The notes beneath the pieces were generated by a model. The model did no database searches and had not been told where the DNA came from. It was given only the letters and a program-made list of their open reading frames with translations. A DNA stretch of 64,000 bases from Escherichia coli (lineage in GTDB: Bacteria > Pseudomonadota > Gammaproteobacteria > Enterobacterales > Enterobacteriaceae): assembly GCF_045037415.1 (NCBI RefSeq), contig NZ_CP173438.1; one strand, written 5' to 3'. Position 1 is the first letter of the stretch. Each line of letters begins with the position of its first letter. A program made the position numbers and the translations under genes. Of the stretch, positions 16,385 through 61,150 are shown in pieces.

Positions 16385-16488
16385 GTGTTGCGGTCTTCCT
16401 GTGTCGCTACTGCTTATCGGCTAATTATCCTGCGTCTTGAGCGCAACAAAGCGGGGAAAAGACGCGGATTACGGTGCTACCTCTGACG

Positions 16489-56600: not shown

Positions 56601-56628
56601 CAGGTTGTTTGGGGCGGAAATACTCTAT

Positions 56629-56696
56629 TTGCGCTTAAAAAGGTATTTGACCACGACCAGCACGAGACCGAATACCTCTGTCAAAGTACCGCCCAT
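56629..56696. repeat. Direct repeat copy 1 (68 bp): 3'-end remnant of a membrane-protein gene
   Basis: 63 of 68 positions identical to 60051-60118; minus strand encodes a 23-codon remnant MGGTLTEVFGLVLVVVKYLFKRK preceded by a stop. Confidence 0.85.
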
Positions 56697-56774
56697 ATAA
56701 AACAGTTACATATGCACTTGATGACTAAGCTGGCACCAGGTTAACACCTGGCGCCAGCTTGAAGGAGACTTCAG

Positions 56775-57698
56775 TTATTGGTTTCTGAGGAAAGCGATTC
56801 TTGAAAGGGTCATTTGCGTCTGGCAGTCGACCATTTTCTTGACTTCAGCATCTGTTCCCTGCATTGAAACTTTACCGCACATAGCATCCTTAGTTTTGAT
56901 CCACTGACGCTGAGAAGGCAGCAAATCTTTTTTCTTCGCCGGGGTTAACTTGCTCCAGACGGTACTCAAATCAGAGTCGGCATTCGCAAATGCCATTCGG
57001 GACTGATCAAGGTTGTCAGCTTTTTGCGGCTGAAGTTGTGCCTGTCTCTCTATTTGCTTCTCCGCCTCATACTTAGCCTGTTCTTGCGCCCTGAGTTGCA
57101 CCTGTTGTTCCGCTTCAATTTGACTCTGTTGGGCATCCTTAGCCTGCTGGATTTTCTGCTGCTCAACGATCGGGGTGATAATGGAAAGCGATGTCAGTAA
57201 AGCGGCGCCCACTGATATCGGATTATCAGTAGAGGTTTTTACAAAAACGTTTTTCTGATCGTCGGTCGCCTGCACGGTGTAGGTGATACGTTTTGAAAAG
57301 GCGTTTGCGTTGTTCTCCAAAAACAGGCTTTCCATTTGCTTATCGAGATTACGATTAAAATTCTTTCTGTAAGCATCTGAAAGCTGGACGTACTCGTTCG
57401 CAGATAGAGTCATCGTCACGGTCCCTTCACAAGTTTTCATTGTGCTGCCCGTGTCACTTGATGTTGTGGAGATCTCAGAGATGGCTAGTTTGATCTTGTC
57501 CAGTGTGCTTCGTTTGGTCTGATTAGTGACATCAGGGTATTTATCGACCTGTTCAGAGAGTCCTTCATAAGCAGATTTTTTTAATAAATCCATGAGAGCT
57601 GACTGGGTTATTTCCGAAGAACAACCGATCTCATCTTTTTTGTTATCACAGCCTGTAAGGGCAATGGCGAGTAAGAGTACTGAGTATTTTAATCTCAT
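56775..57698 (-). CDS. Prophage lipoprotein with LprI/DUF1311-like C-terminal region
   Basis: Lipobox LTGC after signal peptide MRLKYSVLLLAIA; Gln-rich coiled-coil middle; C-terminal two-Cys region ...WIKTKDAMCGK...MVDCQTQMTLSRIAFL. Confidence 0.65.
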   Translation of the reverse strand: MRLKYSVLLLAIALTGCDNKKDEIGCSSEITQSALMDLLKKSAYEGLSEQVDKYPDVTNQTKRSTLDKIKLAISEISTTSSDTGSTMKTCEGTVTMTLSANEYVQLSDAYRKNFNRNLDKQMESLFLENNANAFSKRITYTVQATDDQKNVFVKTSTDNPISVGAALLTSLSIITPIVEQQKIQQAKDAQQSQIEAEQQVQLRAQEQAKYEAEKQIERQAQLQPQKADNLDQSRMAFANADSDLSTVWSKLTPAKKKDLLPSQRQWIKTKDAMCGKVSMQGTDAEVKKMVDCQTQMTLSRIAFLRNQ

Positions 57699-58885
57699 GA
57701 ATTCCCTTTAGAGTAAGGATTGGTTTTTAAGACGCGGTCTGTAATCAGTCCCGAGAGCTACAGTAAACAACGCTGAGCACTGAACGCATCACAGGTAAGG
57801 TAAAAGGTGATATCGGCAAAGGCTGTGAAACCTTTAATTCAACAGATGGGAACGGTATGCGCAGGATCCTGTAACGACGCTCCCAAAACCGGAAACCTGT
57901 AAGGCATGTTTTCGCTGCTGAACTTAATATACGAACCTGCACTATCATGAACATATTTTATATCGTTATACCCCGAGTGATTGTGCCCGGCAATGGATAG
58001 TGTCCTGGAGGAACTATTTCTACTGTAAAAGGTAGATATTTAATTTCAGTTTTGAATTATTCCCTGCTGTTAATAACAATGGCTGTATATGGCACCGAGT
58101 AGGCATTTTTTCGCTTACTGAAGGGCAGCTGTGAGCGAGGAACAGACTTTCCCTACTTCGTTGAGAGTACACCTAGTACAATCAAGGCTAAATGATAAAA
58201 ATATACAAAATATCATATTTATGATATATATAATGGCATTAATCTTATTCTTGGATTACGTTGAAAGGGTAATATTATATTTGTGTAACATAGTTTAGAT
58301 AACAATGCCGTTATGGGGGGGGAAAGACATTTCAACATATTAGCTTTGTATCTAACGCTCATGTAGATCTCGATTTTGAACTTAAAGAACAATTATTTTT
58401 TAGAGAGCAAGGTATTTTTGGGGAACAAAAACATAAAGTAATGGAGAGAGGAGAATGTATCAAAAAATCATCGATTTAATTTAGATTGTCCGTATAGTTG
58501 GGGGTAAGTCGAATCGCTGGGCTACATGGAATATTGTGTCAAGTAAAAATATATTTCAATCTTGCAATAACCGATTGTTGAAAATAATGTCAAATCTTAA
58601 TGGTGAATGGGGAGAATATAATAAACATGAGTCGATATTATGCAAATGGATTTAAATATTTTATACCCGAAGACATAGGGTTTCGAGAGTTCGATGAGAC
58701 TACTTTGAATGCTTTCGAATTTGCTGGCTAAAACATATAGGTTATATCTTACATCTGTTTGTAATGGAGCGTAGATGCGACAAGCTACACCATAATAATC
58801 ATATTATGATATATTGTTAAGTTGTTATGGCATTAAATAAAATTATGTCATTTTGTTAACCAAGCAAGAATCAAAGGACTTTTAG

Positions 58886-59584
58886 ATGGGTACGGCATTA
58901 ATTTCAAGCTTTATTAGTGGTGCAATAGCTATAATCTCTATTGCTATATCTACTTATAATCAGAATAGAATAAACAAGCTCAATGAATCACTGGATGTAA
59001 GGAGAAAACATCAGTACTATATTGAACCGTTAATTCGCTCAGCTTCAGACTTACAAAGCCGTATTTATAATATATTAGAATTGGGGTTCATTGAAGAGTT
59101 TTATCATAATGGGAATAAGCGCCAACAAGATTATGTTATCAACAATACTGTTTTTCTTTTTTCCCAGTTTTTTGCATGGACAGAAGCTGCCCGCATAGAC
59201 ATTCAATACCTTAGCCTAGAAAAAAATAAAAAAATGAGGGAGTTTATTAGATTACAGAACAATATTAACTCATTAATCCAAACAGACGTCTTTGGTCAGT
59301 ATTTTATGTTTTTCATAGGAGAGCAGAGAGCTATTGCAGAAAAGATGCTGATATCAACAGATACTGGATTTGATTGCATAGGTTACGGCAGTTTCACAAA
59401 GGAAAATTGCTTTATCAATGAGCCATTTTTTTTAGATTTAAACAATGAAGTGATAAATATGACAAGAGATATCGGAATTTATAAAGAAAGGCTAATCAGA
59501 ATACAGCACGCGTTAATCGATTTAATTAATTTTCTTGATCCTGGCATGATTCGATTTGACGGAAAAAAATATGGAAAAATATAA
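58886..59584 (+). CDS. Hypothetical single-pass membrane protein (232 aa), AT-rich foreign-looking gene
   Basis: N-terminal TM helix MGTALISSFISGAIAIISIAISTY then ~200-aa soluble region with no recognisable motif; AAAGGA RBS. Confidence 0.6.
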   Translation: MGTALISSFISGAIAIISIAISTYNQNRINKLNESLDVRRKHQYYIEPLIRSASDLQSRIYNILELGFIEEFYHNGNKRQQDYVINNTVFLFSQFFAWTEAARIDIQYLSLEKNKKMREFIRLQNNINSLIQTDVFGQYFMFFIGEQRAIAEKMLISTDTGFDCIGYGSFTKENCFINEPFFLDLNNEVINMTRDIGIYKERLIRIQHALIDLINFLDPGMIRFDGKKYGKI

Positions 59585-59769
59585 CCCAGATGATTCGTAT
59601 CAAGGTAAGTTGCTATATGTATCAATTTAATTATGGTTGGGTGAAATTTATGTTAATAGTAGCGGAGGGTTAGTTAAAATATGCTCTCAGTGATTTTTGG
59701 ATAGTTCTTTTATTTATCATTGAAAGTAAATATGTATAGCTTCAAGATTTACAAGTGAATCTGTTTATT

Positions 59770-59801
59770 GACAGTCCGCTTATGGCACAGAGCGGACTGT
59801 C
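59770..59801 (+). terminator. Hairpin, possible terminator of the 232-aa gene
   Basis: Inverted repeat GACAGTCCGC...GCGGACTGTC; weak downstream T-run. Confidence 0.4.
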
Positions 59802-60046
59802 ATATTAAATTTGGCTCCACGCCATAGATGTGTCAGCTCATATCTTATCTAATACACACAATAACTTTCTCATTCTTGGAGAATTATTTTTTTAAGGGTA
59901 GGTGTTGACGTTAGAGCAAAAGAATGGTGATTTTTTTGATGTGTATTACGTTGGAACTGATGGGAATAACTATCTGTTTTCAACGCACTGCTAATTTATC
60001 AAGGCCCTTTGATCAGGGCCTTCGAAAGACTGTTGGACCGAGAGAG

Positions 60047-60652
60047 TTACTTGCGTTTAAAAAGGTATTTTGTCACGACCAGCACGAGGCCGAATACCTC
60101 TGTCAAAGTACCGCCCATGTACAACTGTAGTGTTAAATCCTCAAATTCCAGCTTACCTGCGCCGTCGGCAATAAATACACCATTCATTATCAGAAGTTGG
60201 AAAGCAAGGATAATCAGGAACCATTTCCCGTATCGTTTTTTTAGAGCGATTTCTGCTTCAAAATCTTTGTTGTTGAGTTGTTTGCGCTCATGCTCGGTAT
60301 CAAGTGAATTCACCTGTTTCACAGATGTGAACTCGGTCAAGATTTTACTCTCAGTACGGGTGACTTGTTGAGAGGGTGTAGCAGTTGGAATTCTTTTGCT
60401 AGACGCAGCTACAGCCATTTTGCGAGCTTCGGCAGCTCTTTTTCTGGCTATTCCGCGAATACGGACAGCCGTTTTTTTGGGGGCGTGCGAAACCTTTGGC
60501 TGAGGTGAAGCTTCGTCAGGAGACTGAACCGGAGTTTCATCGTCCTCCGGCTCAACCTCTTCTGCTAACTGACGGTGTAGGTTGAGGGAATCCTTCAGTC
60601 TGCGTGCTACTTCCTGTTTGAAACGGCTGTTAAAATCGTCATCCGATGGCAT
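60047..60652 (-). CDS. Hypothetical membrane protein: charged, disordered N-terminal region plus C-terminal two-TM hairpin
   Basis: WFLIILAFQLLIMNGVFIA and GGTLTEVFGLVLVVTKYLF hydrophobic segments; start 10 nt after the upstream stop. Confidence 0.65.
   Translation of the reverse strand: MPSDDDFNSRFKQEVARRLKDSLNLHRQLAEEVEPEDDETPVQSPDEASPQPKVSHAPKKTAVRIRGIARKRAAEARKMAVAASSKRIPTATPSQQVTRTESKILTEFTSVKQVNSLDTEHERKQLNNKDFEAEIALKKRYGKWFLIILAFQLLIMNGVFIADGAGKLEFEDLTLQLYMGGTLTEVFGLVLVVTKYLFKRK
60051..60118. repeat. Direct repeat copy 2 (68 bp): authentic 3' end of the 201-aa membrane-protein gene
   Basis: Encodes C-terminus ...QLYMGGTLTEVFGLVLVVTKYLFKRK of ORF 60047-60652. Confidence 0.85.
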
Positions 60653-60661
60653 TTTAAAGCG

Positions 60662-61150
60662 TTACCCCAACCTCAAGTTCTTTAAACGATAAGTCATCGC
60701 ATCGTCAGATACGCCAAAATAATGCGCCATTATATAACTTGGTTGACCGTCAGCGTGCAGTTTTCTGACCTCATCTACCGGCATCAGAAGTTCTGCTGCG
60801 AACTTGTTTGCAAAAATTTCATCAGGATGCGTTCCGGCGCTTGCGGTTTCGCCACGTAAATCAACGTACTCATATTCATCGCTATGCGATGCTTGCCGGG
60901 CGATGTAATGCCCCAACTCATGCCCACATGAAAAACGTTGACGAACTTTGTTGTCATCACTGTTTAGAAAGATCGCTGGATCTTGATCTTTTTGTTTAAT
61001 CAGTGCGCCAGAAACTTTCCCAGGAAGATCGGTAATAAAAACATCTAATCCCATGTCGTGAGCAATTTTCGCTGGATCAACAGGGAAACCACGCCCGCAC
61101 CAGAACGTGTCCAGCACTCGCCGGGCGTGCTCTCTTGGGTTGGTAGCCAT
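60662..61150 (-). CDS. ImmA/IrrE-family Zn-metallopeptidase (COG2856-like)
   Basis: HEXXH motif in SCGHELGHYIA; 162 aa; GGAGG RBS. Confidence 0.75.
   Translation of the reverse strand: MATNPREHARRVLDTFWCGRGFPVDPAKIAHDMGLDVFITDLPGKVSGALIKQKDQDPAIFLNSDDNKVRQRFSCGHELGHYIARQASHSDEYEYVDLRGETASAGTHPDEIFANKFAAELLMPVDEVRKLHADGQPSYIMAHYFGVSDDAMTYRLKNLRLG

What the first reader, a model, noticed from the sequence alone, without database searches (positions are those of the whole stretch)
56775..57698. Prophage lipoprotein with LprI/DUF1311-like C-terminus
Lipobox signal, Gln-rich coiled-coil middle and a two-cysteine C-terminal region resembling the LprI-type fold. Prophage-encoded envelope lipoproteins often act in superinfection exclusion; here it is cargo inside the repeat-bounded cassette.
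Basis: partly seen in the sequence, partly recalled or inferred. Interest (0 to 1): 0.45.

Follow-up and report, generated by a model that had tools for sequence, protein, structure and literature searches.

The report
Flagella-regulated prophage lipoprotein, ScwA relative
A gene carried by an E. coli prophage encodes a membrane-anchored periplasmic protein related to the Salmonella cell-wall regulator ScwA, and it appears to be switched on by the host's flagellar sigma factor, so it is more likely a motility-linked cell-wall factor than a phage-exclusion or lysozyme-inhibitor protein.

Summary
Window 56775-57698 (-) is a 307-aa ORF with a lipobox (LTG-C17), a Gln-rich helix and a C-terminal two-cysteine domain. 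That domain passes Pfam's LprI/DUF1311 cut-off (30.8 vs 22 bits) and superposes on the DUF1311 crystal structure 3GI7. RefSeq already names it 'lysozyme inhibitor LprI family protein'.

The name is doubtful. The protein has no MliC domain. It is collinear across both domains and all four cysteines with Salmonella ScwA, which gives no lysozyme resistance but alters MltD levels.

The N-terminal domain has no Pfam model. It defines about 220 lipoprotein clusters.

The gene is a self-contained 1.2-kb unit of 5' region, CDS and hairpin. The unit sits in prophages of E. coli and Enterobacter and in the chromosomes of Citrobacter, Pantoea and Yersinia. About 120 E. coli genomes carry a type I-E CRISPR spacer identical to its first 32 nt.

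The main new point is a sigma-28 (FliA) promoter, TAAAGGTT-N11-GCCGATAT, about 110 nt upstream. It is the best FliA site in the window, scoring above the window's own fliD, fliA, fliC and fliL promoters. It is conserved at the same offset in 42 related loci.

Best reading: a flagellar-regulon periplasmic lipoprotein acting on peptidoglycan-cleaving enzymes. Superinfection exclusion has no support.

The parts
56775..57698 (-). CDS of the 307-aa lipoprotein, stop codon included. Identical to RefSeq WP_001237642.1, 'lysozyme inhibitor LprI family protein'.
57648..57698 (-). Signal peptide and lipobox (aa 1-17, L14-T15-G16-C17). The mature N-terminus is C-D-N-K-K, with Asp at +2.
   Evidence: 89 of 92 family members have a lipobox. 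The Asp+2 rule is quoted from PMC6469965.
57228..57629 (-). N-terminal alpha+beta domain (aa 24-157). C26 and C90 are invariant, with a T78-x-S-x-D82 motif and a Q143-x-T-D-D147 motif. No Pfam model covers it.
57033..57221 (-). Gln-rich polar helix (aa 160-222). It is a spacer of variable length: 56-90 residues between anchor motifs in orthologues, and one E. coli variant carries an 8-aa duplication.
56787..57026 (-). C-terminal DUF1311/LprI three-helix domain (aa 225-304) with C274 and C292.
57809..57836 (-). Sigma-28 (FliA) type promoter, TAAAGGTT-N11-GCCGATAT-C. The -10 element ends about 111 nt before the ATG.
   Evidence: Reference sites come from PMC4183435 Table 2.
57699..57927 (-). Conserved 5' region (promoter, about 105-nt leader, Shine-Dalgarno) that travels with the gene in prophages and chromosomes.
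56728..56759 (-). Perfect 14-bp hairpin 16 nt after the stop codon (-33 kcal/mol for the 81-nt fold, z -5.4). There is no U tract. It marks the end of the block shared with Citrobacter.
56626..56706 (.). Left copy of the 81-nt direct repeat. It is a remnant of the 3' end of a gene like the 201-aa ORF.
60048..60128 (.). Right copy of the 81-nt direct repeat. It is the 3' end of the intact 201-aa ORF, 60047-60652 (-).
57664..57698 (+). Protospacer (57667-57698) plus its ATG PAM (57664-57666). It is matched 32/32 by a type I-E CRISPR spacer present in about 120 complete E. coli genomes.

Best explanation
The locus is a self-contained, horizontally mobile single-gene unit: a sigma-28 promoter, a leader of about 105 nt, the CDS and a hairpin. 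In this genome it rides as a moron in the nin region of a prophage integrated next to tRNA-Leu. It encodes a Sec/Lgt/LspA-type lipoprotein facing the periplasm, probably held in the inner membrane by Asp at +2. The protein has three parts. A cystatin/NTF2-like alpha+beta domain lies close to the membrane and probably carries a C26-C90 disulfide. A stiff polar Gln-rich helix of variable length follows. A DUF1311 three-helix domain, probably with a C274-C292 disulfide, sits at the far end. The protein is the lipid-anchored, long-spacer relative of Salmonella ScwA. I propose that it is transcribed by FliA-RNA polymerase together with late flagellar genes such as motAB, fliC and the che genes. I further propose that, like ScwA and the DUF1311 proteins used as immunity proteins against periplasmic cell-wall toxins, it binds or stabilises peptidoglycan-cleaving enzymes and so adjusts cell-wall remodelling in motile cells. 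Shown here: the ORF, the lipobox, the domain matches, the homology to ScwA, the mobility, and the strength and conservation of the promoter motif. Inferred: lipidation and inner-membrane location, FliA dependence in vivo, and the peptidoglycan-enzyme target.
For: Domains: PF07007 scores 30.8 bits against a cut-off of 22, and 3GI7 matches with probability 1.0. The AF2 models have pLDDT 82.6 and 88.4.
ScwA homology: BLASTP is collinear over 304 columns, E 3e-10, with all four cysteines aligned. The N-domain profile against ScwA gives hhalign probability 89.7%, E 1.9e-6. ScwA is periplasmic, confers no lysozyme resistance, raises MltD levels and lyses cells when overproduced (PMC7933661).
DUF1311 proteins neutralising periplasmic cell-wall toxins: Etsi4 rescues Etse4 toxicity (PMC12981562). 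LprI-domain genes lie downstream of lysozyme-like T6SS effectors in Pantoea (PMC9796082).
Promoter: the pattern occurs once in 64 kb with 0 expected. The PWM score of 21.6 bits ranks first of 127,946 positions, above the window's own fliD, fliA, fliC and fliL promoters. It is conserved at 104-115 nt from the ATG in E. coli, Citrobacter, Enterobacter, Pantoea and Yersinia, even where the flanks have diverged.
Mobility: the same 1.2-kb block lies in the Citrobacter chromosome and in Enterobacter prophages. It occurs in 38 IMG/VR loci with no conserved partner gene.
A link between lytic transglycosylases and flagella exists elsewhere: H. pylori lacking MltD has paralysed flagella (summarised in PMC3961634).
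Against: No experiment exists on this protein. Identity to ScwA is only 21%, and ScwA's own mechanism is unknown because direct binding to MltD has not been shown. scwA and the more distant family members lack the sigma-28 motif, so regulation and function may have diverged. No biochemical activity has been demonstrated for an isolated DUF1311 domain. Some FliA-bound sites in E. coli drive no detectable regulation (PMC4183435), although those are mostly intragenic. The +2 residue varies among close orthologues (D, N or G), and the Asp+2 rule is not absolute (PMC6469965), so membrane assignment is uncertain. No peptidoglycan hydrolase gene is consistently adjacent.
Confidence: 0.42

Rival explanations
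1. It is an orphan immunity protein. The DUF1311 domain neutralises an incoming periplasmic muramidase-type toxin, such as a T6SS effector like Etse4, the Pantoea lysozyme-like effectors, or a phage lysin acting from without. This would protect the lysogen in bacterial warfare.
For: DUF1311/LprI-domain proteins act as, or are inferred to be, T6SS immunity proteins. Orphan immunity genes are common cargo. The protein is targeted to the periplasm. One Enterobacter prophage that carries the orthologue also carries the lysozyme inhibitor Ivy.
Against: No effector gene lies next to the gene in any of about 50 loci examined. Similarity to Etsi4 is marginal: BLASTP E 0.12, and Etsi4 itself falls below the Pfam cut-off. 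A sigma-28 promoter is not what one expects for constitutive immunity. This reading also does not explain the conserved N-terminal domain or the spacer.
Confidence: 0.15
2. It is a superinfection-exclusion lipoprotein. It would block adsorption or DNA entry of competing phages. Because it is co-expressed with flagella, the targets could be flagellotropic phages.
For: The gene is prophage cargo transcribed against the surrounding phage genes. The protein is an envelope lipoprotein. The neighbouring genes look like defence or accessory cargo: a capP-like ImmA/IrrE protein and a weak RTasTM-like match. The sigma-28 promoter would couple expression to a phage receptor.
Against: There is no similarity to Cor, Llp, TrbK, Sie or any PADLOC model. 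Close orthologues with the same promoter are stable chromosomal genes at one fixed locus in all four Citrobacter places shown (the protein is indexed in 1006 blocks of the collection), and are also chromosomal in Pantoea and Yersinia. No sequenced phage isolate carries the gene.
Confidence: 0.1
3. It is a genuine inhibitor of animal (c-type) lysozyme, as the database name says, and helps the lysogen survive in the host.
For: The Pfam and PGAP names say so. M. tuberculosis LprI inhibits lysozyme (cited). Carriage is concentrated in human ST131-type isolates.
Against: The protein has no MliC domain, and MliC is the part of LprI reported to be sufficient for lysozyme resistance (PMC7933661). The homologue ScwA gave no lysozyme phenotype. 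No Ivy, PliC or PliG fold was found.
Confidence: 0.07
4. It is a passenger with no current role in E. coli. A mobile unit was picked up by recombination and is drifting.
For: The neighbourhood is a mosaic bounded by repeats. IS insertions and deletions occur nearby. A cluster of truncated 259-aa alleles lacks most of the DUF1311 domain.
Against: The intact gene is at least 99% identical in about 430 complete genomes. Both domains, the four cysteines and the promoter are strongly conserved across genera.
Confidence: 0.1

Closest known systems
ScwA (SL1344_0490) of Salmonella Typhimurium (Cestero et al. 2021, PMC7933661)
   Same: The two-domain order is the same: an N-terminal alpha+beta domain with two Cys and a C-terminal PF07007 domain with two Cys. 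All four cysteines align. BLASTP gives E 3e-10 over the full length, and the N-domain profile gives hhalign probability 89.7%. Both are periplasmic and both are stand-alone genes.
   Different: ScwA has an ordinary signal peptide rather than a lipobox and a short linker instead of the Gln-rich helix of about 60 residues. It has no sigma-28 motif upstream. Identity is only 21%. ScwA sits at a fixed chromosomal site between copA and ybaP and is not phage-borne.
LprI (Rv1541c) of M. tuberculosis, the source of the name of Pfam PF07007
   Same: Both are lipoproteins containing a PF07007/DUF1311 domain.
   Different: LprI carries an additional MliC domain, to which the lysozyme inhibition is attributed. 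The window protein has none and has a different partner domain.
DUF1311-type T6SS immunity proteins: Etsi4 of EHEC and the orphan LprI-domain genes of the Pantoea hcp island
   Same: They are periplasmic proteins built on the DUF1311 fold that counteract toxins targeting the cell wall.
   Different: They are small single-domain proteins (Etsi4 is 149 aa) encoded next to their effector. Pairwise similarity to the window protein is not significant (E 0.12). No effector lies nearby here.
Single-domain DUF1311 proteins: E. coli YecT and P. putida PP0307 (PDB 3GI7)
   Same: The fold of the C-terminal domain is the same. YecT matches PF07007 at 64.8 bits and lies next to flhE in K-12.
   Different: They have no N-terminal domain, no spacer and no lipobox. 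Their functions are unknown.
flxA of the Qin prophage of E. coli K-12
   Same: It is a prophage gene with no known role in motility that is transcribed from a FliA promoter (TAAAGATT-N11-GCCGATAG; PMC4183435). It is a precedent for phage cargo wired into the flagellar regulon.
   Different: The protein is unrelated. The resemblance concerns regulation only.
Phage exclusion lipoproteins (Cor, Llp) and plasmid entry-exclusion TrbK
   Same: They are lipoproteins encoded by mobile elements.
   Different: They are small outer-membrane proteins without DUF1311. The only hit is sub-threshold and limited to the signal peptide (TrbK E 0.089, 12.8 bits against a cut-off of 23).

Membership tests
Pfam PF07007 (LprI / DUF1311) | The HMM score reaches the gathering threshold | tested here: met
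   30.8 bits against a cut-off of 22, E 4.1e-7, aa 225-304
Pfam PF07007 (LprI / DUF1311) | Conserved cysteine pair and helical fold of a solved member | tested here: met
   C274 and C292 are invariant. Foldseek against 3GI7 gives probability 1.00 and TM 0.65.
Functional lysozyme inhibitors of the LprI/MliC type | Presence of an MliC (PF09864) or other known inhibitor domain | tested here: not met
   No such Pfam hit even at E 10, and no such structural match
Functional lysozyme inhibitors of the LprI/MliC type | Inhibits lysozyme or confers lysozyme tolerance | not testable with these tools
   The homologue ScwA showed no such phenotype (PMC7933661)
ScwA family | Collinear homology over both domains with four conserved cysteines | tested here: met
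   BLASTP E 3e-10 with C26/C30, C90/C100, C274/C237 and C292/C259 aligned. hhalign 89.7%.
ScwA family | Soluble periplasmic protein with a signal peptidase I signal | tested here: not met
   The window protein has the lipobox LTGC. ScwA has ...AVSYAG/LFD with no lipobox.
ScwA family | Controls levels of MltD and other peptidoglycan enzymes | not testable with these tools
   Needs tagged-enzyme immunoblots as in PMC7933661
Bacterial lipoproteins | Positively charged n-region, hydrophobic h-region and an [LVI][ASTVI][GAS]C lipobox | tested here: met
   MRLK-YSVLLLAIA-LTGC. 89 of 92 family members have a lipobox.
Bacterial lipoproteins | Inner-membrane retention signal (Asp at +2, no adjacent basic residue) | tested here: inconclusive
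   The mature end is C-D-N-K-K: Asp at +2, Asn at +3, Lys at +4. Orthologues have D, N or G at +2. The rule is taken from PMC6469965.
FliA (sigma-28) regulon, class 3-type promoters | TAAAGTTT-N11-GCCGATAA-like motif, correctly oriented upstream of the gene | tested here: met
   TAAAGGTT-N11-GCCGATAT scores 21.6 bits, rank 1 in the window and within the range of mapped sites. It is conserved in 42 loci.
FliA (sigma-28) regulon, class 3-type promoters | FliA-dependent transcription in vivo | not testable with these tools
   Needs RNA-seq or 5' RACE in wild type against a fliA mutant
T6SS immunity proteins | Encoded next to a cognate effector | tested here: not met
   No effector or T6SS gene lies in any flank
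Phage morons (lysogenic-conversion cassettes) | Own promoter and terminator-like end, orientation independent of phage operons, and the same unit found in other backbones | tested here: met
   Sigma-28 promoter. Hairpin without a U tract. The gene lies on the opposite strand to its neighbours. The same block occurs in two prophage backbones and in chromosomes.
Known anti-phage defence or exclusion systems | Match to a PADLOC model or to an exclusion-lipoprotein family | tested here: not met
   No PADLOC hit. TrbK and VirB7 hits are sub-threshold and confined to the signal peptide.

The most novel reading that the evidence does not exclude
The protein is a horizontally mobile, phage-transmissible accessory part of the flagellar regulon. 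It would be an inner-membrane-anchored 'ruler' lipoprotein made with the stator and filament genes. Its DUF1311 head would capture or stabilise lytic transglycosylases of the MltD type, or other cell-wall enzymes, at the peptidoglycan layer. That would condition the wall around new basal bodies for stator anchoring. Acquiring the prophage would then change the motility or envelope behaviour of the lysogen. This would also give DUF1311 its first defined cellular role.
Probability: 0.15. Interest if true: 0.7.

Novelty: new variant of a known kind. Interest (0 to 1): 0.48.

Why it matters
PF07007/DUF1311 proteins are widely annotated as 'lysozyme inhibitors' on the strength of one mycobacterial protein, and that protein's activity lies in a different domain. 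This locus shows an enterobacterial subfamily with a second, undescribed lipoprotein domain and a full-length relationship to ScwA. It also has a strong, conserved FliA promoter, and the whole unit moves between chromosomes and prophages of pandemic ST131-type E. coli. If FliA dependence and a peptidoglycan-enzyme target are confirmed, three things would follow. A misleading annotation carried by at least the several hundred complete E. coli genomes seen here would be corrected. A new non-flagellar, or cryptically flagellar, member would join the sigma-28 regulon. There would also be an example of a prophage plugging cargo into host motility control. The exact CRISPR spacer match is a rare case of an E. 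coli type I-E spacer with an identifiable target.

Tried and rejected
(1) Tae3/Tai3 idea. I considered that the prophage's TIGR02594 endolysin and this protein might form an effector/immunity-like pair. The PDB sequence search found nothing for either protein. The literature assigns Tai3 to DUF3828, not DUF1311. I dropped the idea.

(2) Spanin or lysis role. I rejected this because the gene is on the opposite strand, far from the lysis cassette, and has chromosomal orthologues.

(3) Sigma-70 promoter. The consensus scan found none in the conserved 5' region, and manual inspection found only poor hexamers.

(4) RNA element in the leader or cassette. Rfam gave only chance-level hits. The leader fold is not unusual (z -0.33).

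(5) Isolated phages. Neither megablast nor tblastn against 50,697 phage genomes found a match. BFVD structures gave nothing significant.

(7) Retrieving ScwA. The exact-pattern scan of genome contigs returned only a 452-bp contaminant contig. Two homologue searches returned only fragments, and the contigs encoding the fragment all break inside the gene. A primer-derived 30-mer scan of metagenome contigs finally gave the full gene.

(8) Contexts of distant family members. The contigs were short or held housekeeping genes and were uninformative.

(9) The 224-aa gene downstream of the Enterobacter orthologue is unrelated to the 201-aa ORF here.

Full report
OBSERVATION. The ORF is real. It runs from 56775 to 57698 on the minus strand, has an ATG start and encodes 307 aa, with AAGGGA six nt upstream as a Shine-Dalgarno sequence. 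The N-terminus, MRLKYSVLLLAIALTG-C17, is a textbook lipoprotein signal. The C-terminal 80 residues match Pfam PF07007 (LprI/DUF1311) at 30.8 bits, above the curated cut-off of 22. In an AlphaFold model (pLDDT 82.6) these residues form three helices that match the DUF1311 crystal structure 3GI7 with Foldseek probability 1.00. The middle is Gln-rich (17 of 53 residues) and modelled as a single 63-residue helix. It has no heptad periodicity, so 'coiled coil' is not supported. RefSeq already annotates the identical protein (WP_001237642.1) as 'lysozyme inhibitor LprI family protein' in more than 430 complete E. coli genomes, many of them ST131. PHROGs lists it as family 5094 of unknown function.

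CLOSEST CHARACTERISED RELATIVE. Cestero et al. (PMC7933661) described Salmonella ScwA. It is a 275-aa periplasmic protein with a C-terminal LprI domain and four conserved cysteines. It gives no lysozyme resistance, raises MltD levels, affects other peptidoglycan enzymes, and lyses cells when overproduced. They also note that M. tuberculosis LprI has an MliC domain that is sufficient for lysozyme resistance. I recovered scwA from a metagenome contig using a primer sequence from their supplement. BLASTP against the window protein is collinear over 304 columns (21% identity, E 3e-10) and aligns all four cysteines. The N-domain profile matches ScwA with hhalign probability 89.7%, E 1.9e-6. The window protein is therefore a ScwA homologue. 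It differs in having a lipid anchor instead of a cleaved signal peptide and a long polar spacer. It has no MliC domain, so the database name 'lysozyme inhibitor' rests on no tested feature.

CONTEXT AND MOBILITY. The gene lies in a prophage integrated beside tRNA-Gly/Cys/Leu. It sits between the replication module with an ORF6N gene and the Q antiterminator, and it is on the strand opposite to its phage neighbours. An 81-nt direct repeat (89% identical) brackets 3.3 kb. The right copy is the 3' end of a 201-aa ORF and the left copy is a remnant. Inside the bracket are the lipoprotein unit and an AT-rich block (31% GC) with a 232-aa ORF. DNA homology to the Citrobacter freundii chromosome covers only about 56729-57930, that is, the 5' region, the CDS and a 14-bp hairpin. 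In Citrobacter the gene stands alone between the fec operon and an MFS transporter gene. In Pantoea, Yersinia and Morganella it also stands alone, at different chromosomal sites. In Enterobacter it occupies the equivalent slot of different lambdoid prophages. IMG/VR holds 38 loci on two backbones with no conserved partner gene. No isolated phage genome encodes it. The AT-rich ORF and the lipoprotein unit also occur separately in other strains.

About 120 complete E. coli genomes match the query only at a sequence annotated as CRISPR. The nine such genomes listed have no other match to the query and so lack the gene. In the one array inspected (strain 7/2, beside cas2e and iap) this is a type I-E spacer identical 32/32 to the first 32 nt of the CDS. 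The protospacer is preceded by ATG, which from my own knowledge is an interference-proficient I-E PAM. E. coli has therefore met this gene on invading DNA.

REGULATION. The one element conserved across all close orthologues, even where Pantoea flanks have diverged, is TAAAG(G/A/T)T-N12-GCCGATA. This is the sigma-28 (FliA) promoter form, TAAAGTTT-N11-GCCGATAA. The pattern occurs once in the 64-kb window with 0 expected by chance. It lies at the same offset in 42 fetched loci. I built a weight matrix from 23 ChIP-seq-mapped E. coli FliA sites (Fitzgerald et al. 2014, PMC4183435 Table 2). The site at 57809-57836 (-) scores 21.6 bits, the best of 127,946 positions in the window. The next four hits are the window's own fliD, fliA, fliC and fliL promoters, which serve as internal positive controls. 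Among the leave-one-out scores of the mapped sites, it falls between yhjH and flxA. Orthologous sites score 16.8-24.8 bits at 104-115 nt from the ATG. Morganella is weak at 7.5 bits. scwA and the distant family members have none. FliA dependence in vivo remains an inference. A precedent exists in flxA of the Qin prophage. Two loose leads point the same way. A 329-aa 'LprI-family protein' lies beside the acquired flagellar cluster 2 of C. koseri (PMC13268207). The single-domain DUF1311 gene yecT lies next to flhE in K-12. I found no paper that links LprI-family proteins with FliA.

MECHANISM. The following is shown: an exported lipoprotein signal, two disulfide-type domains separated by a polar helix, homology to ScwA, a portable transcription unit, and a top-scoring conserved sigma-28 motif. 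The following is inferred. (a) Asp at +2 retains the protein in the inner membrane (rule from PMC6469965). The +3 Asn, the +4 Lys and the variation among orthologues weaken this. (b) The N domain sits at the membrane, since only eight residues separate C17 from C26, and the helix, about 95 A long if fully helical, holds the DUF1311 head out towards the peptidoglycan. (c) The head binds or stabilises peptidoglycan-cleaving enzymes. The basis for (c) is threefold. ScwA changes MltD levels. DUF1311 proteins neutralise periplasmic cell-wall toxins. Lytic transglycosylase activity is needed for motor function in at least one species. I give this reading 0.42.

RIVALS. The alternatives are an orphan T6SS immunity protein (0.15), a superinfection-exclusion protein (0.10), a true lysozyme inhibitor (0.07) and a drifting passenger (0.10). 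Each is argued in its own entry. The exclusion idea lacks any sequence support. It is also weakened by the stable chromosomal orthologues that carry the same promoter.

NOVELTY AND LIMITS. The protein family and its annotation exist already. The following are new here: the full-length link to ScwA, the delineation of an undescribed N-terminal lipoprotein domain, the recognition of a 1.2-kb unit shared by chromosomes and prophages, the CRISPR spacer match, and above all the FliA promoter. I rate it a new variant of a known kind. Nothing here tests function directly. The AF2 models come from shallow alignments of 10-20 sequences. Disulfide pairing is inferred from domain membership and not measured. 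The truncated 259-aa allele cluster may be real or may be a homopolymer sequencing artefact.

Noticed in passing
window 57664-57698; L012 1506-1537 (NZ_CP023820.1): About 120 complete E. coli genomes match the gene only at a CRISPR-annotated site, and the nine listed lack the gene. In the one array inspected (strain 7/2) it is a type I-E spacer identical 32/32 to the first 32 nt of the lipoprotein CDS. The protospacer has an ATG PAM.
   Followed up: partly
window 58886-59584 (+), inside the AT-rich block at about 57950-60000 (GC about 0.31): A 232-aa ORF with no Pfam hit and a weak PADLOC match to RTasTM, a DRT-associated membrane protein (E 1.8e-5). Some genomes annotate it as 'lysogenic protein'. 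In other strains it occurs without the lipoprotein gene.
   Followed up: partly
window 60047-61150 (-): A 201-aa ORF with a C-terminal hydrophobic tail lies directly downstream of an ImmA/IrrE (Peptidase_M78) gene. That gene matches the PADLOC capP model at 2.4e-25. The pair may be a defence-regulator or accessory module in the prophage.
   Followed up: no
window 16413-16440 (-), 32910-32937 (-), 33011-33038 (+), 34275-34302 (+): The window contains the fli region. The FliA weight matrix recovers the fliL, fliD, fliC and fliA promoters as hits 2-5, which validates the matrix.
   Followed up: yes
L006 4178-4591 (Enterobacter prophage): One Enterobacter prophage that carries the orthologue also carries an Ivy (PF08816) lysozyme-inhibitor gene about 2.4 kb away.
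   Followed up: no
L009-L011 (Morganella morganii): The Morganella orthologue lies 300 nt downstream of the yfhM (alpha-2-macroglobulin)-pbpC operon, which is a periplasmic defence and peptidoglycan-repair pair. Its sigma-28 motif is weak (7.5 bits).
   Followed up: partly
P0071 and P0002 (E. coli alleles of the window protein): A cluster of 166 sequences ends at residue 259, just after an A-run in the DNA, and lacks both DUF1311 cysteines. Another allele has an 8-aa duplication (EQQVQLRA) in the linker. Whether the truncation is real or a sequencing artefact is unresolved.
   Followed up: partly
L068 4973-5461 (E. coli K-12 yecT): The single-domain DUF1311 gene yecT (PF07007, 64.8 bits) lies convergent with flhE at the end of the flhBAE operon. 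About 30 nt upstream it has only a weak ACGATAAC-like -10 element.
   Followed up: partly
L013 (NZ_AEVT01000030.1, labelled Vibrio sinaloensis): A 452-bp contig of a Vibrio assembly is the Salmonella scwA-ybaP junction, so it is probably contamination. Separately, several Salmonella draft assemblies break at the same point inside scwA (L014-L017).
   Followed up: no
H47, H48, H50; L056: IS1 and IS3 insertions occur in this prophage region in some strains. One IS1-associated deletion joins the lipoprotein gene directly to the baseplate genes.
   Followed up: partly
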